A stretch of DNA of 64,000 nucleotides, from the IMG/VR virus record IMGVR_UViG_2630968876_000001, positions 1 through 64,000 of that record; one strand, written 5' to 3'. Each line of letters opens with the position of its first letter. Positions within the stretch are counted from its first letter, which is position 1. Of this stretch, positions 3,186-19,253 are shown piece after piece. This DNA is from a virus (taxonomy: Duplodnaviria; Heunggongvirae; Uroviricota; Caudoviricetes). The notes under the pieces were generated by a model that searched no databases, was not told the DNA's origin, and was given only the letters and a program-made list of their open reading frames with translations. The position numbers and the translations under genes are program-made.

Positions 3186-3291
3186 AGTTCTGTTATCCTT
3201 GCCAGTGGTTTATTTCAGAATCCAAAACCCAATGGTTATGAGTAAACCCGATTGAACGGAATCAGGGAGCCAGCGATGGCTCCCTTTTTCT

Positions 3292-3750
3292 TTAGTCCTG
3301 CGTCCACTTCTCGCCCGTATCAGCACACACCACGCCATGACACACGCGCCCCTGATCCAGACGATAGGCCATGCCCCCCAGCTTTATGCGTTTGCGGCAG
3401 TGCTGCGCGCCTGACAGATAGGCATGCGGAACGGCGGAATCAATCGCCCCTTCCTCGGTGCACAAGCCGTCCTCAGCATCGCTGTAGCCGCGGGCAAACT
3501 CGCTCAGCACTTCGCGCCGATCCTCAAAACGTATTGTTTCGCCCCGGTCCTGGCAGCGGGCGTACTCAATCGCGCCATACTTCGCCAGAGTGGCAATGGT
3601 TTTGGGGTGCCTGAAAATCTCCTCGCCCCAGTAATGCCCGGTGCAGGAGTCAACGTAAGAGCCGTTGGAATAGGTGCCGATAGGATTAGAGACGTCGTGT
3701 GCGGTCGCCACTGCGACGAAGAAGTTAACGACGTTGCCGGTAACAGACAT
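3292..3750 (-). CDS. hypothetical Cys-rich protein, 152 aa
   Basis: ORF in the operon downstream of cre; several Cys/His residues (CTGH, CHGVVC). Confidence 0.45.
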   Translation of the reverse strand: MSVTGNVVNFFVAVATAHDVSNPIGTYSNGSYVDSCTGHYWGEEIFRHPKTIATLAKYGAIEYARCQDRGETIRFEDRREVLSEFARGYSDAEDGLCTEEGAIDSAVPHAYLSGAQHCRKRIKLGGMAYRLDQGRVCHGVVCADTGEKWTQD

Positions 3751-12434: not shown

Positions 12435-12833
12435 TCAGCGGTAGCTTTTCAGCAGGTGGCTAACAGTGTTCGACCAGTTTGTTACAGTGTCACGGGCTAA
12501 GCGGTGGACAACCTGGCTGTAAAGGTTATCCGGCAACGGTTCCCCGGCTTCATCCTCAAACCGTAATCCTTCTGTCGTGCCTGGCTTACTCATATTCACA
12601 CTGTAATCAAACTTGCCCGTTGCCCCGTACATGCCTATCTGCTGCTGAGCCTGCCAGGTAAAGCGCACGCCACACCCTTTCCTGATCTCAAACACTACGG
12701 TCCCTTCCACCAGCATCGCTGACTGCTTCTCACCTGTAGGCAGTGACTTATTGCGGCATGCCACCGATGTGACTTTGCAGTGATCCGCGCGCCAGCCCAG
12801 CAGCTCCAGCCCTTTGAGTTTTACCGTCTCCAT
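12435..12833 (-). CDS. hypothetical protein, 132 aa
   Basis: ORF followed by a palindrome gggctggttcagccagccc (12404-12430); start overlaps the upstream gene's stop. Confidence 0.45.
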   Translation of the reverse strand: METVKLKGLELLGWRADHCKVTSVACRNKSLPTGEKQSAMLVEGTVVFEIRKGCGVRFTWQAQQQIGMYGATGKFDYSVNMSKPGTTEGLRFEDEAGEPLPDNLYSQVVHRLARDTVTNWSNTVSHLLKSYR

Positions 12834-13411
12834 TAAATCAGTCTCCAGTCGCTTGCCAGCAGATCGGCGGTTACGGGCGTCCAGTCAGCCGTTGTCAGCT
12901 GCTCGGTGTTGGTCAGCACGAACTGAGGCATGCGCGTTACGGACGCCTGCGGATCGTGGTCAAAGAATCGCGCCGGCACGCCGTACATATCGGTGCCGTT
13001 CAGCGGGTGCCGTGTGGTGCCTCTGCTGAGGCGCAGATGCATTCCCTCTCCCCACGCTTTACGTGCCACTTTTGCGCCGTCAGAGAGCCACACATGCGCT
13101 ACGGCCATAGGCGCGCCCTCTTCCCTGAATTTCAGCATGCCCTCGTCTATCAGCTGCTCGTTGCGCAGGATCAGATCGTTCAGCTTCAGCATGGCCAGAC
13201 AGGCAGCATGATTAAGCGATTCCCCGCGGGCGGTCATGGTCAGTGCGCCTTTGCTCACCGTGGCTGACCAGTCTGTTGCGGTCTGTGACTGATGCGTTAC
13301 CACAAAGCCCAGGTGCTCCAGAGCGTTCAGCAGCGCCATATAGTCGCCGGTATAGTTGCCCGCAGCGCCGGCAATCATGCCAATCATTTCGTTTATTTGT
13401 TGATCGTTCAT
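12833..13411 (-). CDS. hypothetical protein, 192 aa
   Basis: ORF in the same minus-strand block, with stop/start overlap with the downstream gene. Confidence 0.5.
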   Translation of the reverse strand: MNDQQINEMIGMIAGAAGNYTGDYMALLNALEHLGFVVTHQSQTATDWSATVSKGALTMTARGESLNHAACLAMLKLNDLILRNEQLIDEGMLKFREEGAPMAVAHVWLSDGAKVARKAWGEGMHLRLSRGTTRHPLNGTDMYGVPARFFDHDPQASVTRMPQFVLTNTEQLTTADWTPVTADLLASDWRLI

Positions 13412-13806: not shown

Positions 13807-13908
13807 TTGTGCTGGCCGGATTTGAACCGGCGACCTTTCGCTTGTCCCTTTAACCGCCCTGCAGGCCGAATAAAAGAGCGAACGCTGCTGCCGCTGAGCT
13901 ACAACACA
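13807..13908 (-). ncRNA. tRNA-like element #1 with a ~29-nt insertion where the anticodon loop should be
   Basis: Minus strand reads acceptor TGTGTTG, D-arm GCT-CAGCGGC-AGC, anticodon-stem strands TTCGC ... GCGAA (perfect 5 bp) enclosing 36 nt, variable loop AGGTC, T-arm GCCGG-TTCAAAT-CCGGC, acceptor CAGCACA-A. No encoded CCA. Confidence 0.4.
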
Positions 13909-14351
13909 ACGATAAAAGCCCGTCTGCCGGTGCTCTTACCTGTTGGCCTGTATCAGCTGGCCACCAGCTGTGCGATCAGCCATTTATGACCGGCAAACAG
14001 TCCGGCATTCAGCAGCAGATGAAACATGACAAACTGCATCGCTCTGACTGTTTTGATGTACATGCTGGTGTCCATACTGCCTAAACCCTGATTAACTGAC
14101 TGAATTGTTCTAATCATGCCTGAATTTTCATGTCAGCGCTTATGCGTGCGTATCTGTTAGGCGTTAGTGGTGGCCGGTGCCATACCCGGCAAGTAACCTC
14201 TCAAGCGACTGGTCAACTCGGTTACTGGCGGCTTAAACCCCTATGCGGTGCGATTGATGAAGCGGGGGCCAGTCTTGCGATCGCAGCAGCAACTGCGAAT
14301 GCACCACAACGGAGAGAGCACTGAGCGGCTAATGCGCTTTCCTGTTGTGAA

Positions 14352-14375
14352 GTAAAAGGCCTCCGGAGAGGCCGG
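14352..14375 (-). terminator. rho-independent terminator after the SPFH lipoprotein gene
   Basis: On the minus strand: ggcctctccggaggcc hairpin followed by TTTT, just after the stop at 14382. Confidence 0.65.
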
Positions 14376-14381
14376 GTAATG

Positions 14382-15221
14382 CTATTTAACGCCGATAAAA
14401 GGCATTGGTGCGCTGTTGCCCATGTACTGCGGCAGCGTGCCATTCCACTTATTAATACCTTCCAGCTGCAGTACTTCCGGATTTTGGCGCAGTGCCTCAC
14501 CGCGCATGGCGATAGCGGCAGATTCAGCTTTAGCGTGCAGCATAGTTGCATCAGCTTCACCGCGGGCAATCTCGATGGCTTTCTGTGCTTCGGCTTTTGA
14601 CTGCTGAATTTCGTTTTCACGCAGCAGAGCGCGTTGAGTCGCCTCAATCTTCGCGTTAATCGACTCTTTTACCTTCGGCGGATATTCCAGATCGCTAATC
14701 CATGACAGCTTAACGATGCGAATACCCAGCGGATCGAGTTTGGATTTCAGATCGCCAGTGACCGCGTTCAGTAGCTCGGTTTTACCACCAGCAGCCAGAG
14801 AGTTAATATCCATGCGGCCGGAATGATTGATTAACGCATCGCTGATGTTCTGGCGAATGTTAATGTCGGTGATCTCTTCAACGCCTTTCCGGTACTTCTG
14901 AAAAATGGACGTTACTTTGGTCGGATCAACGTAATACTCAACGCCTACCTTTGCTTTGATATCCATTGAGTCCGCTGTCTGGAAAACAAACGGCACATCA
15001 TAGTTGTGCAGCTGGTTGAACGTCGGGAACTGATAGATTTCCTCGTTCATTGACAACCAGTAACGCCCGGTGCCGACTTCCTGCTGCTGGACACCCTTTT
15101 CATCGCCATACAGCTCAACTTTAACGCCCACAAAGCCCGTCGGCACGGTTACGCGATCGCAGCCAGAAAGTAGCAGAGACGCACCAATAGCCAGTGAAGC
15201 CAGTGCTAATTTAGTTTTCAC
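14382..15221 (-). CDS. SPFH/band-7 (prohibitin/HflKC-like) domain lipoprotein
   Basis: Lipobox LLSGC after a signal peptide. SPFH-like core (...FVFQTADSMDIKAKVGVEYYVDPTKVTSIFQKY...) and a C-terminal coiled-coil segment (QRALLRENEIQQSKAEAQKAIEIARGEADA). Confidence 0.7.
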   Translation of the reverse strand: MKTKLALASLAIGASLLLSGCDRVTVPTGFVGVKVELYGDEKGVQQQEVGTGRYWLSMNEEIYQFPTFNQLHNYDVPFVFQTADSMDIKAKVGVEYYVDPTKVTSIFQKYRKGVEEITDINIRQNISDALINHSGRMDINSLAAGGKTELLNAVTGDLKSKLDPLGIRIVKLSWISDLEYPPKVKESINAKIEATQRALLRENEIQQSKAEAQKAIEIARGEADATMLHAKAESAAIAMRGEALRQNPEVLQLEGINKWNGTLPQYMGNSAPMPFIGVK

Positions 15222-15438
15222 GCTTCGTTGCCTTACTCAGTTGATTAGAAATAACGTGCATAACGTGCTTGAGCCATTTGAGGATTAGCCATGCATAAAT
15301 CGGCATAGTGGCCAGCACAATGAATCCGGCTATGCAAAGAACGGTGTCTTTACTGGATATCAACCACGGGGCAGCGTGGCCGTAAGCCATGAATCCGACA
15401 AAAATCAGGCAAATAAATCTCAGGTAAAAGCTAATCAA
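15211..15438 (-). CDS. small two-TM membrane protein, 75 aa, overlapping the start of the SPFH gene
   Basis: Hydrophobic segments ICLIFVGFMAYGHAAPWLI and LCIAGFIVLATMPIYAWLIL; 11-bp overlap with the SPFH gene suggests an operon. Confidence 0.45.
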   Translation of the reverse strand: MISFYLRFICLIFVGFMAYGHAAPWLISSKDTVLCIAGFIVLATMPIYAWLILKWLKHVMHVISNQLSKATKREN

Positions 15439-15696
15439 ACTGCGTCCTCAAAGGTAATGCATACAGAGAGGGACACTGCGTAAAACAGAGCAACGCCCTT
15501 TTCTGCAGGTACTACCGGCGACGCTTTATCTTCGCATCACTGCGACAGGCTTTGATAACCGTTTCAAAGCCGTAAATGACCACCAGCGTGTAAATGATGG
15601 TGAGGCCTGGATGCTCTGCAGCAAACGCTAAAAACGGCATATCGTGTCCTGTCTGTTAGGGATGCTGTCTCTGATGCAACTGGTCTGTACTGAAAC

Positions 15697-15780
15697 TGGC
15701 AGTGACGGCTGGATTTGAACCAGCGACCTTCCGTACTCCTGAGTTAAAGCCGGACGCTCATTCCCCTGAGCTACATCACC
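15697..15780 (-). tRNA. tRNA-like element #2 (encoded CCA end; canonical D- and T-arms; non-canonical anticodon/variable region)
   Basis: Minus strand: GGTGATG-TA-GCTC-AGGGGAAT-GAGC-G-TCCGG-CTTTAAC-TCAGG-AGTACGGAAGGTC-GCTGG-TTCAAAT-CCAGC-CGTCACT-G-CCA. Read conventionally, the loop CTTTAAC would give anticodon UUA with a weak stem and a 13-nt variable region. Alternatively an enlarged 15-17-nt loop closed by TCCG/ACGGA. Confidence 0.4.
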
Positions 15781-16492
15781 ATAAACGGGTTGCTGTGATC
15801 GGTTTCCGTTAGCGCGATTGTTCAATGAGGCGGGAGTGAAACCCGCTTTGCCTTCGCAGCCCATCGCTGACCGCCAGCGTCGATTCGCCGGCAGGGCTTT
15901 CGCCCCGTGGATTGACTCCACAACTCCTACGGTGTGTTAAAGCAATCACCACAACGGCTGAGAGCACTGACCCCCTGCCCGGATAACGGAGCCTTTACCA
16001 GTCTCCGCCCAGTGCTCTCACCGTTGCGTGCCGGTCTTTCCCGGCTGTCACGAACTTTTTTGAGGTCTGCCGCTGACCCTGCCCTGCCACCAGCCAAATC
16101 AGCCAGTAAGCAGCGCGTCGCCTGGTGTTGACGTGTAGTGCATGGGGGGCTGGTGCCTCCAGCTGTCCGATACGGAACCTACGGACGGGATTTACCAAGA
16201 GTATATATCTGAGTTCCGCCCCGCGTGCGCATAGCCGCATTCCCCCATTTGTGAGCGTGCTGTCAGAGGCAGTTACACCCGTCGCCAGGCAGCAAGAGGA
16301 TGCCAGCACGCTCACAAATGGCGATCCCTTACGGGGATCAGGCGGGAGCTTGTTTAAGCCTCACGGGGCGTTCTATGCGCGGGATAGTCCAAAACCGCGT
16401 TCACTGCCGTGACAGGAGGGGCTACATGCCGTTCACCCTACTCATAACATGCCCGGAAAATCTGGAGACTACCGGGAGCGGCCCGTTACGAA

Positions 16493-16557
16493 CTGGTGCA
16501 GGCTGGCGGGATCGAACCGCCGACTATGAAACACTCTGCCGACTGAGCTAAGCCTGC
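16493..16557 (-). ncRNA. tRNA-like element #3 (acceptor stem, D-arm, T-arm and encoded CCA present; anticodon arm missing about 11 nt)
   Basis: Minus strand: GCAGGCT-TA-GCTC-AGTCGGCA-GAGT-GTTTCATAGTC-GGCGG-TTCGATC-CCGCC-AGCCTGC-A-CCA. Only 11 nt lie between the D- and T-arms. Confidence 0.4.
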
Positions 16558-16733
16558 TGAATTGGTGCCGGTGCATACCCGGCGCGGACACTTAGGCGTC
16601 TGGTCAACCTGTCCGCTTGCGTAAACAAAAGGGAAGAACCACCCCTGCCAGATTTGCATTGCGTCTGCCTCGCTGCTGAATCCTCTCTCCGATTCAGCCG
16701 TGAGCACACATCATGCGCTCACGGTTAAACCTG

Positions 16734-16758
16734 AAAAAAAGCCCGAAAACTATCGGGC
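16734..16758 (-). terminator. rho-independent terminator (minus strand)
   Basis: gcccgaaaactatcgggc hairpin preceded on the plus strand by an A7 run (T-run on minus). Confidence 0.6.
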
Positions 16759-16937
16759 ATTAAATGTTACCAACCAATATAAAGCGCACTCACAAAATGC
16801 GCTTTAGAGTGGGAAAAAAGACAGGCTAAACAAAATGTTACCGTCCAGCCTGATTGCACTAAATTTTTAAAGCCACGATGTTACAGCGAGAAGAAATGTA
16901 CACAAAAATACGGAAACAATCAATTAAAAATGGCTCT

Positions 16938-16960
16938 GTATTTTAGAAATGTATGTGTTT
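16938..16960. promoter_or_regulatory. C1-operator-like motif (TATTTTAGAAATGTATGTGTTT), upstream (minus sense) of tRNA-like element #3
   Basis: Member of the ATTTATTTAGAAWTRTGTG motif family, in an AT-rich non-coding stretch. Confidence 0.35.
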
Positions 16961-17178
16961 ATTTCAGGCAGCTTTTTGGCCCTTAACGACGTCTGGTATT
17001 TGGGTTTTTGAGGTTTTCAATATCGCCATTGGTTTTTGACCAGGCAATGCACCAGCTGTTAACAGCAGCGCGGATCTCGTCTACCGTGGCCTCGCTTAGC
17101 CCTTTGACCTTCACCAGTTCCGGCGGCAGCTCACCGCCCACAGCCGCCACCGTGTCATAACCGGCTTTTACCAGCGCG

Positions 17179-18399: not shown

Positions 18400-18699
18400 T
18401 TAGCCTGCGAGGAGAAACCCGCAGTAAAGCGCAGTGGCTGCAACAGTCAGCCAGAACGCCTGCAGCAAAACGGACGGCGGGCGCACGCGTCCGGTTTCGT
18501 ATTCCTCCTGCGTCATATGGCCCAGATAACTCATGGCCACCAGCACGGCGTTTTCGTCAAAGTCGAGCGTTGCGCGCAGATGCTCCAGGGCAGGACGCGT
18601 CACCTGGCGCGTGTTCAGGGTAACCACGCCGGATCGCATTCTTCCCGATTCGCCGGCAAAGCAGACGGAGTGATAGTGGAAACGAGACATACGGCGCAT
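18400..18699 (-). CDS. hypothetical protein, 99 aa, with C-terminal TM segment
   Basis: ORF; C-terminal hydrophobic WLTVAATALYCGFLLAG. Confidence 0.35.
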   Translation of the reverse strand: MRRMSRFHYHSVCFAGESGRMRSGVVTLNTRQVTRPALEHLRATLDFDENAVLVAMSYLGHMTQEEYETGRVRPPSVLLQAFWLTVAATALYCGFLLAG

Positions 18700-19253
18700 C
18701 AGGTCGCCGTATGCCAGTCTGTCATTTCAAAGTCCGGCAGGCTCGGCTCATAAGGATGTTCGCTGCCGTCAGCCTGATAAAGCACCAGCTGTATTGCGCT
18801 CGGCCTGTGGCTGCGTGACTTTTTTCGTCCCATCAGAAAATGCCCCGCTGGCCACTCGGTCCGCCTCACGGCAAGCTCCAGATTTTCGTGCAGGCGATTC
18901 ATGGCGTCGTTGTACCCGAAAAGCGCGACAGGCTGGCTGTCTACGTCAATGGCACCGATACCAATTTTGCCTAAACCCTCAACCTGAACCGTTGTCATGC
19001 GTGCGCGTCCTTCTGTAAATGTTTTGCGTAAAATTAAACCAATGCCCTTCACGCCGCCGTAGTAACACAGCGTGCGTTCGCTTAAACCACTGCGGGATTT
19101 AAGCTCGTCTTTCGACACTTTCAACGCTCCAGCGTCTGCTGCCATTTCGGCAAATACCGCCAGCCCAAGCTGCAGGCTTTCCCGCGTTTTTTTACGACGC
19201 GCAGCGAGCCGGAAAGCAGGGCATGGCAGAAAAAAATTTGCATTAAACAGCAC
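18699..19253 (-). CDS. hypothetical protein, 184 aa, with HTH-like segment
   Basis: LKVSKDELKSRSGLSERTLCYY resembles a helix-turn-helix; start/stop overlap with neighbouring genes. Confidence 0.4.
   Translation of the reverse strand: MLFNANFFLPCPAFRLAARRKKTRESLQLGLAVFAEMAADAGALKVSKDELKSRSGLSERTLCYYGGVKGIGLILRKTFTEGRARMTTVQVEGLGKIGIGAIDVDSQPVALFGYNDAMNRLHENLELAVRRTEWPAGHFLMGRKKSRSHRPSAIQLVLYQADGSEHPYEPSLPDFEMTDWHTAT

What the first reader, a model, noticed from the sequence alone, without database searches (positions are those of the whole stretch)
14382..15438. Small membrane protein + SPFH/band-7 lipoprotein operon flanked by the tRNA-like elements
A two-gene minus-strand operon encodes a 75-aa two-TM protein overlapping a 279-aa lipoprotein with an SPFH (prohibitin/HflKC-like) domain and coiled-coil tail. 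It sits between tRNA-like elements #2 and #1 and ends in a clean terminator (14352-14375). It is not part of canonical P1 and lies in a non-structural accessory position. SPFH/membrane pairs are recurrent membrane-integrity or exclusion modules. This could be a superinfection-exclusion or abortive-infection cargo.
Basis: inference. Interest (0 to 1): 0.55.

Follow-up and report, generated by a model that had tools for sequence, protein, structure and literature searches.

The report
Phage SPFH lipoprotein with membrane partner
This is a real two-gene cassette, a tiny two-helix membrane protein plus a prohibitin/HflK-like lipoprotein, that belongs to a very common phage gene pair of unknown function, so it is an ordinary member of an unstudied family rather than a new defence system.

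Summary
On the minus strand a 75-aa two-TM ORF (15438-15211) overlaps by 11 nt a 279-aa lipoprotein (15221-14382). The lipoprotein has a lipobox LLSGC with Asp at +2, a Pfam Band_7 match (5.7e-22) and a 65-residue helix, and the gene ends at a hairpin terminator. The window is Pantoea plasmid pPSP-26e, a distant P1-like phage-plasmid.

The pair is not unusual. It matches PHROG families phrog_1130 and phrog_200. SPFH homologues occur in 678 phage records, lytic and temperate, and a small two-TM ORF lies directly upstream in almost every locus examined.

It is a true accessory cassette. About 1.2 kb is missing from sister Pantoea plasmids. In E. coli P1-like plasmids a homologous pair exactly replaces tciABC between the tRNA genes upstream of ban; it is found in 195 PLSDB plasmids.

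In temperate phages the pair sits in early or replication operons. There is no PADLOC hit and the partner has no NfeD domain. No paper found assigns a function to a phage SPFH protein.

My best reading is an early-expressed, periplasm-facing SPFH ring on the inner membrane, docked to the hairpin partner. A role in exclusion or defence is neither supported nor excluded. I rate it a new member of a known kind, with modest interest.

The parts
15211..15438 (-). orf75: a small hairpin membrane protein with two TM segments. The predicted topology is N-in/C-in, with the conserved loop motif P-W-L-I-S-S-K-D-T facing the periplasm. It starts at TTG, with a GAGGA Shine-Dalgarno at 15449-15445.
   Evidence: - ORF list and sequence and hydropathy.
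- phrog_1130 'membrane protein', E=3e-9.
- An HMM of 14 upstream partners hits this ORF at 9.9e-25. It also hits an ORF directly upstream of the SPFH gene in 84 of the 110 sequences searched.
14382..15221 (-). A 279-aa SPFH/Band 7 (prohibitin/HflK-like) lipoprotein. It has the lipobox LLSGC (Cys21) with Asp at +2, an SPFH domain, a 65-residue helix (182-246) and a conserved C-terminal motif NKWNGTLPQY. It starts at GTG and overlaps orf75 by 11 nt.
   Evidence: - Pfam PF01145, 5.7e-22.
- phrog_200 'lipoprotein', 2.2e-85.
- AlphaFold2 model.
- Foldseek full-length matches to prohibitin, HflK/C, erlin, stomatin and QmcA, E=1e-9 to 1e-14.
- Alignments.
14352..14375 (-). Intrinsic terminator ending the two-gene unit. 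The stem is GGCCTCTCCGGAGGCC at 14373-14358, followed by a T-run.
   Evidence: Terminator scan and the sequence itself.
15439..15511 (-). Leader between the stop codon of orf42 and orf75. It holds no sigma-70 consensus promoter. It is about 90% conserved with the relative L011, which is more than the neighbouring coding sequence, and it can fold into a hairpin that partly covers the Shine-Dalgarno sequence.
   Evidence: Alignment, RNA fold of -31.9 kcal/mol with z=-2.2, and promoter scan.
14325..15548 (.). Extent of the insertion/deletion cassette. This interval has no BLAST counterpart in the sister plasmids pEuc3 and pFC61912-B_D, where about 97 bp stand in its place. The upstream edge is fuzzy, lying somewhere in 15490-15548.
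   Evidence: Pairwise BLAST, junction alignment, and lower GC of 0.46-0.53 against 0.58-0.62 in the flanks.

Best explanation
The cassette encodes a two-component inner-membrane scaffold that the phage makes for its own lytic development.

**Proposed mechanism**
- The lipoprotein is exported and lipidated. It is retained on the periplasmic face of the inner membrane because of Asp at +2. Many relatives use an uncleaved N-terminal TM anchor instead of a lipobox.
- Like HflK/C, prohibitin, erlin and stomatin, it assembles through its long helix into a ring or cage over a patch of membrane.
- The co-translated hairpin protein sits in that membrane. Its conserved periplasmic loop (P-x-L-I/V-S-S/A-K/R-D-T) contacts the SPFH domains, either as an anchor or as the enclosed client.
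- The pair is transcribed with early or replication genes rather than in the lysogen.
- Its most likely role is to reorganise or protect the inner membrane of the infected cell. That could mean changing membrane-protein quality control (FtsH-type) or keeping the membrane intact until programmed lysis.

**What is shown:** domain identity, fold, anchor signals, gene coupling, conserved pairing, cassette nature, and genomic context in other phages.

**What is inferred:** oligomerisation, contact between the two proteins, expression timing in this plasmid, and the physiological role.
For: **SPFH identity and full-length cage-type architecture**
- Pfam match.
- PDB profile hits to QmcA, prohibitin-2 and HflK/C.
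- AlphaFold2 model with an SPFH domain plus a 65-residue helix.
- Foldseek top hits are all ring-forming SPFH proteins, aligned over about 250-310 columns.

**Periplasmic, inner-membrane anchoring**
- The lipobox has Asp at +2.
- Acidic residues dominate at +2 (D 17, E 18 of 42).
- Many 55-64% identical relatives carry a non-cleavable N-terminal TM anchor in place of the lipobox.

**Obligate partner**
- The genes overlap by 11 nt here and by 1-20 nt elsewhere.
- The partner HMM hits directly upstream on the same strand in 84 of the 110 sequences searched.
- The sampled loci without an HMM hit have a divergent 55-63 aa two-TM ORF in the same place, apart from L095, whose SPFH gene is truncated.
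- The same arrangement is seen in P88, phiP27 and Pseudomonas phage Ostro; PhiSH19 has an unannotated 72-aa hydrophobic ORF in that place.

**Early or replication context**
- SSU5: after an exonuclease and a recombinase.
- A Salmonella prophage: between an ssDNA-binding protein and a DNA polymerase.
- P88: in the cox-to-A early operon.
- phiP27: upstream of xis-int and on the same strand.
- RCS47 and IncY plasmids: between dmt and ban.

**Presence in many strictly lytic phages**.
Against: - No experiment on any member was found in the searched literature.
- Expression timing in this plasmid is unknown. No promoter was identified, and the P1 late-promoter motif does not occur in the window.
- About half of the lipoprotein-type relatives have Glu rather than Asp at +2. 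From my own knowledge, Glu is not an established inner-membrane retention signal in E. coli.
- Contact between the two proteins and ring formation were not modelled.
- In Kayvirus the pair lies beside lysis genes and its partner has one TM segment. The role may therefore differ between lineages.
- The cassette is dispensable in sister plasmids.
Confidence: 0.45

Rival explanations
1. Superinfection exclusion or envelope protection. The pair sits at the periplasmic face of the inner membrane and blocks DNA injection by other phages, or the action of colicins. It would do this either in the lysogen or early in infection, as T4 Imm (a two-TM protein) and Sp do.
For: - The cassette is accessory and swapped between relatives.
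- In P1-like plasmids it exactly replaces tciABC, which the P1 record annotates by homology as tellurite or colicin resistance.
- A TerB+DUF3927 cassette lies about 150 bp away in a sister Pantoea plasmid.
- The neighbourhood is rich in conflict genes: a Tad2-like domain, an Ulx-like anti-restriction protein, and a 2290-aa SNF2-type helicase ORF placed like P1 darB.
- The membrane and periplasmic location suits exclusion.
- Presence in lytic phages does not exclude it, because T4 Imm and Sp are early genes of a lytic phage (my own knowledge).
Against: - No PADLOC match, and no PHROG exclusion family among the hits.
- The SPFH protein is strongly conserved across very different phages and hosts: 50% identity to P1-like phages and 67% to rV5-like phages. 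That is unlike exclusion proteins, which are typically narrow in distribution and fast-evolving (my own knowledge).
- In temperate phages it lies inside early operons rather than at lysogen-expressed moron sites.
Confidence: 0.2
2. A specific modulator of the host FtsH protease, acting as an HflK/C mimic or competitor. It would stabilise phage or host FtsH substrates such as cII-like regulators, Xis, LpxC or sigma-32, and so shift the lysis-lysogeny decision or host physiology.
For: - The only NCBIfam hits, although weak, are HflK and HflC.
- Sequence and fold matches include HflK/C and prohibitin, both partners of AAA proteases.
- The predicted periplasmic orientation is the same as that of HflK/C.
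- It lies in the leftward operon of phiP27, on the same strand as and upstream of xis-int. From my own knowledge, lambda carries the FtsH inhibitor cIII in the corresponding PL operon.
- The idea was raised, untested, for Burkholderia phage CSP3.
Against: - Scores lie far below the HflK and HflC equivalog cut-offs: 26 against 159 bits and 24 against 134 bits.
- There is a single SPFH gene, not a K/C pair.
- The family also occurs in lytic phages and in Gram-positive phages, where a lysogeny decision or HflK/C is not relevant.
- No FtsH-binding determinants could be tested.
Confidence: 0.15
3. A lysis-timing or secretion helper. The SPFH raft would organise holins, the Sec machinery or signal-anchored lysins. 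Alternatively it is a lysogenic-conversion lipoprotein that acts on an animal or plant host.
For: - In Kayvirus, mbpV-mbpS lies between lysK and tgl, and its authors suggested help with Sec-dependent export of Tgl.
- An HflK/C-like SPFH protein (PM0222) encoded on a prophage island of Pasteurella multocida was reported to be secreted via outer-membrane vesicles, to signal through TLR1/2, and to contribute to virulence.
Against: - In this window and in the enterobacterial phages examined, the pair is not next to lysis genes.
- Homology of PM0222 to this protein was not tested.
- A virulence role does not explain the presence in lytic phages.
Confidence: 0.1

Closest known systems
Phage SPFH 'lipoprotein' family phrog_200 with its partner phrog_1130. 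Examples are the SPFH lipoprotein of RCS47 and IncY P1-like plasmids, SSU5 gp061/062, P88 gp11/12, phiP27 L05 and 4MG_114/116.
   Same: - Direct homologues: 50-67% identity for the lipoprotein.
- Same lipobox and same conserved C-terminal NKWNG motif.
- Same small two-TM partner with the P-x-L-I-S-S-K-D loop directly upstream.
- In RCS47 it likewise sits in a tRNA-flanked accessory slot.
   Different: - Here it sits in a Pantoea phage-plasmid that is only distantly P1-like, at a different insertion point (after orf42).
- Its closest relatives are in rV5-like lytic phages and Salmonella/Serratia prophages rather than in P1.
- None of the members has a known function.
E. coli HflK/HflC (FtsH-associated periplasmic SPFH cage) and the prohibitin/SPFH4 group
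   Same: An N-terminally anchored SPFH domain predicted to face the periplasm, followed by a long helix. Full-length structural similarity.
   Different: - One gene rather than a K/C pair.
- A lipid anchor instead of a TM helix.
- Only 16-21% identity in the fold alignments.
- Far below the equivalog cut-offs.
- A dedicated 75-aa hairpin partner that HflK/C does not have.
- The link to FtsH is untested.
NfeD-SPFH operons (QmcA-YbbJ, YqiK-YqiJ, archaeal stomatin PH1511-PH1510)
   Same: A small membrane-protein gene immediately upstream of, and co-transcribed with, an SPFH gene. QmcA is the best PDB sequence hit, at 5.5e-6.
   Different: - The partner has no NfeD/OB-fold domain (no Pfam hit at E<=1) and is only 75 aa.
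- From my own knowledge, the SPFH domain of QmcA faces the cytoplasm; this one is exported.
P1 tciA-tciB-tciC (TerB-family protein, DUF3927 protein and a third small ORF)
   Same: - It occupies the identical site between upl and trnI in P1. The flanks are 97-98% identical to those around the SPFH pair in RCS47.
- A TerB+DUF3927 cassette also lies in the same variable stretch of a sister Pantoea plasmid.
- Both cassettes pair a larger domain protein (TerB or SPFH) with very small ORFs.
   Different: There is no sequence relationship. The TerB domain is unrelated to the SPFH domain. Functional equivalence is only an inference from position.
Kayvirus MbpV-MbpS
   Same: A small membrane protein whose gene overlaps a downstream SPFH membrane protein. 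MbpS is a distant homologue, at about 27% identity.
   Different: - MbpV has one TM segment and a long charged tail, and lacks the loop motif.
- MbpS is TM-anchored.
- It lies in the lysis region of a Gram-positive lytic phage.

Membership tests
SPFH / Band 7 superfamily (PF01145) | Significant match to the SPFH domain model above the curated cut-off | tested here: met
   79.1 bits against a cut-off of 23.6; E=5.7e-22; residues 25-212.
SPFH / Band 7 superfamily (PF01145) | Architecture of an N-terminal membrane anchor, an alpha/beta SPFH domain and a long coiled-coil helix, as in the ring-forming members | tested here: met
   AlphaFold2 model with pLDDT 79.7 and a helix over 182-246. Foldseek full-length hits to prohibitin, HflK/C, erlin, stomatin, QmcA and flotillin.
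SPFH / Band 7 superfamily (PF01145) | Assembly into a high-order ring or cage on a membrane | not testable with these tools
   Only monomer prediction is available. It needs a multimer model, BN-PAGE or cryo-EM.
Bacterial lipoprotein | A signal peptide with a positively charged n-region, a hydrophobic h-region and the lipobox [LVI][ASTVI][GAS]C | tested here: met
   MKTKLALASLAIGASLLLSGC, with Asp at +2. The lipobox is conserved in 42 non-redundant relatives. Lipidation itself is not shown.
HflK / HflC (FtsH modulators) | Score above the NCBIfam equivalog cut-offs | tested here: not met
   HflK 26.1 bits against 159.4; HflC 24.0 bits against 134.4.
HflK / HflC (FtsH modulators) | Two paralogous SPFH genes encoded together | tested here: not met
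   A single SPFH gene is present. The upstream gene encodes a 75-aa hairpin protein.
HflK / HflC (FtsH modulators) | Physical association with FtsH | not testable with these tools
   This requires a pull-down or a structure.
NfeD-SPFH operon | The partner protein carries an NfeD domain | tested here: not met
   orf75 has no Pfam family at E<=1. It is 75 aa, consisting of two TM segments and a short basic tail.
NfeD-SPFH operon | A membrane-protein gene adjacent to and co-oriented with the SPFH gene | tested here: met
   An 11-nt overlap here. The adjacency is conserved in 84 of the 110 sequences searched by HMM, plus divergent cases.
Phage pair phrog_1130 + phrog_200 | Both proteins match the PHROG profiles and keep the order partner then SPFH on one strand | tested here: met
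   phrog_200 at 2.2e-85 and phrog_1130 at 3e-9. Synteny.
Known anti-phage defence systems (PADLOC-DB 2.0) | Match of either protein to a defence-system model | tested here: not met
   No family at E<=1 for orf75, the SPFH protein or orf42. Only these three proteins were scanned, not the whole window.
Superinfection-exclusion proteins (T4 Imm/Sp, P1 Sim and similar) | Sequence homology to a characterised exclusion protein | tested here: not met
   No exclusion family appears among the PHROG hits at E<=0.1. The protein annotated 'superinfection exclusion protein' next to the SPFH gene of PhiSH19 shows no hydrophobic segment and does not match the partner HMM (E=0.46). Functional exclusion was not tested.

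The most novel reading that the evidence does not exclude
The hairpin+SPFH cassette and the TerB+DUF3927 (TciA/B) cassette would be interchangeable envelope-protection modules. Phage-plasmids would swap them at tRNA-linked hot spots. Expressed early, the periplasmic SPFH cage would shield the inner membrane from incoming phage DNA injection, from colicins, or from the host's own pore-forming abortive-infection effectors. That would make it a widespread and so far unrecognised class of phage exclusion or anti-abortive-infection device.
Probability: 0.2. Interest if true: 0.6.

Novelty: new member of a known kind. Interest (0 to 1): 0.3.

Why it matters
SPFH lipoproteins are among the more common accessory genes of tailed phages. 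They are present in 678 of about 50,700 phage records, and a homologous pair is present in about 190 P1-like plasmids of E. coli and Salmonella. Even so, a June 2026 paper still states that the reason such a gene is found in a phage genome is unclear.

This work adds three things to the family picture:
- A conserved hairpin partner, often left unannotated, that carries a fixed loop motif.
- Predicted periplasmic, inner-membrane topology.
- Cassette behaviour, including an exact swap with tciABC in P1-like plasmids.

Together these make the family easier to test genetically. They do not make this particular copy special.

Tried and rejected
**Defence and NfeD**
- PADLOC on both proteins and orf42 gave no hit.
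- Pfam found no NfeD or any other domain in orf75.

**Searches with the small partner**
- The word-indexed homology search found only 2 relatives.
- The exhaustive phmmer search of 1.84 billion representatives found only 7, with no informative fusion.
- The family became visible only through synteny plus an HMM built here.

**Promoters**
- A position-weight matrix built from six annotated P1 late promoters found nothing in the window. The best score was 11.0, against 18-24 for the true sites and fewer hits than in shuffled sequence. Late or early timing could therefore not be read from promoters.
- The sigma-70 scan found no promoter inside the cassette.

**Junctions and leader**
- The cassette junctions share only a weak similarity of about 12 of 20 bases (14347-14328 against 15509-15488). 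I do not count this as a target-site duplication.
- The leader hairpin is marginal, with z=-2.2.

**PhiSH19**
- The 'superinfection exclusion protein' next to its SPFH gene looked like a lead. It shows no hydrophobic segment and does not match the partner HMM. An unannotated 72-aa hydrophobic ORF abuts the SPFH gene there instead.

**Literature**
None of the papers found describes a functional study of a phage SPFH protein.
Full report
**Identity of the window.** The window is 100% identical to Pantoea sp. PSNIH1 plasmid pPSP-26e (CP009882.1, 87 kb), offset by 70 bases. It is 99.8% identical to a plasmid deposited as Acinetobacter venetianus. It encodes an Lpa-like late activator, a PmgS-like protein, an Ulx-like protein, a ParM partition protein and a terminase. 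It also has a 2290-aa SNF2-type helicase ORF directly after the Ulx-like gene, where P1 has darB. It is therefore a distant P1-like phage-plasmid. It has no nucleotide-level match to any deposited phage apart from the SPFH gene itself.

**Check of the observation.**
- On the minus strand a 75-aa ORF (15438-15211) starts at TTG, with a GAGGA Shine-Dalgarno 6 nt upstream. It overlaps by 11 nt a 279-aa ORF (15221-14382) that starts at GTG.
- The small protein has two hydrophobic segments. Basic residues concentrate in its C-terminal tail here and at both ends in relatives such as MRRIY...KEKK, so both ends should be cytoplasmic and the short loop periplasmic.
- The large protein begins MKTKLALASLAIGASLLLSGC|DR, a lipoprotein signal with Asp at +2.
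- It matches Pfam Band_7/SPFH at 5.7e-22.
- The AlphaFold2 model (pLDDT 79.7) shows the SPFH domain followed by one 65-residue helix.
- The hairpin terminator at 14373-14358 is real.
- The flanking tRNA-like elements are detected by the Rfam tRNA model at 15700-15780 and 13807-13908, with a third at 16497-16557. ARAGORN accepts only the first.

**What the pair is.**
- The two proteins match PHROG families phrog_200 ('lipoprotein', 2.2e-85) and phrog_1130 ('membrane protein', 3e-9).
- tblastn finds the SPFH protein in 678 phage records. These include rV5-like lytic phages (67% identity), P1-like RCS47 and phage-plasmid SSU5 (about 50%), phages of Pseudomonas, Burkholderia, Erwinia and Caulobacter, crAss-like and Lak phages, and Staphylococcus Kayvirus (about 27%). 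A 2026 paper also reports an SPFH lipoprotein gene in an N4-like (Schitoviridae) phage.
- More than 1,100 close relatives exist in the large protein collection.
- I collected loci from viral contigs, prophages and plasmids and built an HMM from 14 upstream small ORFs.
- That HMM hits an ORF directly upstream on the same strand in 84 of the 110 sequences searched. The sequences overlap in part, because some contigs were fetched twice.
- Nine of the ten loci I sampled among those without a hit carry a more divergent 55-63 aa two-TM ORF with an S-S/T-rich loop at the same place. The tenth, L095, has a truncated SPFH gene.
- The partner is present but unannotated in RCS47 and phiP27, and a hydrophobic 72-aa ORF is unannotated in PhiSH19. 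The partner is also missing from the CDS table of the A. venetianus copy.
- The loop motif P-x-L-I/V-S-S/A-K/R-D-S/T is the most conserved part of the partner.
- Many relatives of the SPFH protein replace the lipobox with a non-cleavable N-terminal TM helix. This fixes the SPFH domain on the periplasmic side of the inner membrane.
- Among lipobox versions, the +2 residue is Asp (17) or Glu (18) in 35 of 42.

**Relationship to known SPFH proteins.**
- Profile search of the PDB gives QmcA, prohibitin-2, HflK and HflC at 1e-4 to 5e-6.
- Foldseek gives full-length matches to prohibitin, HflK/C, erlin, stomatin and QmcA.
- NCBIfam scores for HflK and HflC are far below the equivalog cut-offs, and only one SPFH gene is present. 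It is therefore not HflK/C.
- The partner has no NfeD domain, so this is not an NfeD-SPFH operon in the strict sense, although the gene arrangement is analogous.
- There is no PADLOC hit.

**It is an accessory cassette.**
- Compared with the sister plasmids pEuc3 (P. eucalypti) and pFC61912-B_D (P. agglomerans), window 14325-15548 is replaced by about 97 bp, while the flanks align at 70-92%.
- The cassette GC content is 0.46-0.53, against 0.58-0.62 around it.
- A 94% identical protein occurs in the same context in metagenomic relatives.
- In pFC61912-B_D an 818-bp stretch holding TerB and DUF3927 genes stands where the window has the tRNA-like element 15700-15780. These two genes are of the same Pfam families as P1 TciA and TciB.
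- In E. coli P1-like plasmids the parallel is exact. P1 positions carrying tciA-tciB-tciC, between upl and trnI and upstream of ban, are replaced in RCS47 by a 78-aa hairpin ORF plus the SPFH gene. The flanks are 97-98% identical.
- The RCS47-type pair is found in 195 PLSDB plasmids and tciABC in 289.
- 'Not part of canonical P1' is therefore true only of the reference genome.

**Where it sits in other phages.** The pair lies within early or replication gene blocks:
- SSU5: after an exonuclease and a recombinase.
- A Salmonella prophage: between an ssDNA-binding protein and DNA polymerase A.
- The P2-like phage P88: between cox and the replication endonuclease, in the early operon.
- phiP27: upstream of xis-int, on the same strand.
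- P1-like plasmids: between dmt and ban, downstream of the C1-controlled ban promoter annotated in P1.
- 4MG: upstream of an HNH endonuclease and an exonuclease.
- Only in Kayvirus is it next to lysis genes.

This placement, together with the many lytic hosts, argues against a typical lysogen-expressed defence moron. In the window itself I could not identify a promoter, and the P1 late-promoter motif is absent. Timing here is therefore inferred.

**Literature.** No functional study of a phage SPFH protein was found. Authors variously call it a lipoprotein, a serine protease or a prohibitin-family protein, and they speculate about Sec-dependent export, lysogeny control or DNA entry. A prophage-island HflK/C-like SPFH protein of Pasteurella multocida was reported as a virulence factor that signals through TLR1/2. 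I did not test its homology to this protein.

**Verdict.** The finding is real but ordinary: a new member of a widespread, uncharacterised phage gene pair. My best mechanistic reading (confidence 0.45) is an early-made, periplasm-facing SPFH ring on the inner membrane, docked to its hairpin partner, which reorganises or protects the membrane of the infected cell. Exclusion (0.2), specific FtsH modulation (0.15) and lysis, secretion or virulence roles (0.1) remain open. Interest is 0.3.

Noticed in passing
window 15697-15780 (-), 13807-13908 (-), 16497-16557 (-): Three tRNA-like elements keep good acceptor, D and T arms but have aberrant anticodon regions.
- The first has a UUA (ochre-reading) anticodon by ARAGORN, about 9 extra bases and an encoded CCA end.
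- The second carries a 35-nt insertion.
- The third (61 nt) has no anticodon arm.

The 61-nt form is conserved in pEuc3 and L011. At the same place pFC61912-B_D has a different sequence, which ARAGORN calls tRNA-Phe. They could be decoys, suppressors or decayed genes.
   Followed up: partly
window 12833-13411 (-); weaker at 18699-19253 (-): A 192-aa protein has a Tad2-like (DUF2829, Thoeris anti-defence 2) domain: Pfam 5.1e-12, 46.6 bits against a cut-off of 25. A second ORF has a sub-threshold match (E=0.0033). NCBI names the pEuc3 homologue 'MW1434 family type I TA system toxin'. It is a candidate anti-Thoeris gene 1 kb from the cassette.
   Followed up: partly
L111 7737-8335 (pFC61912-B_D), corresponding to window ~15671-15783: A TerB-family gene plus a DUF3927 gene, the same Pfam families as P1 TciA and TciB, lie in an 818-bp stretch of a sister Pantoea plasmid at the site where this window has a tRNA-like element. 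The same two cassette types, TerB/DUF3927 and hairpin/SPFH, therefore circulate in both the Pantoea and the E. coli P1-like lineages.
   Followed up: partly
window 15512-15640 (-): orf42 is a 42-aa single-TM ORF (MPFLAFAAEHPGLTIIYTLVVIYGFETVIKACRSDAKIKRRR) just upstream of the cassette. It is conserved and annotated in relatives that lack the cassette, so it belongs to the backbone and not to the SPFH module.
   Followed up: partly
window ~15781-17178: A stretch of about 1.4 kb has no annotated CDS in either deposited copy. It is GC-rich (about 0.60) over 15800-16600, is about 75% conserved with pEuc3, and holds several terminator-like hairpins at 16630-16852. The only Rfam match within it is the tRNA-like element.
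   Followed up: no
L001 (CP060164.1) versus the window: A 95.6-kb plasmid deposited as Acinetobacter venetianus matches this Pantoea plasmid at 99.8% identity over the 14 kb compared. This suggests either a very broad host range or a mis-assigned or contaminated assembly.
   Followed up: no
L003 2727-2963 (RCS47); L113 ~3250-3440 (phiP27); L118 1932-2150 (-) (PhiSH19): The hairpin partner gene is missing from the annotation of RCS47 and phiP27, although the ORF is intact there and overlaps or abuts the SPFH gene. PhiSH19 has an unannotated 72-aa hydrophobic ORF in the same position. The partner is also absent from the CDS table of the A. venetianus copy.
   Followed up: yes
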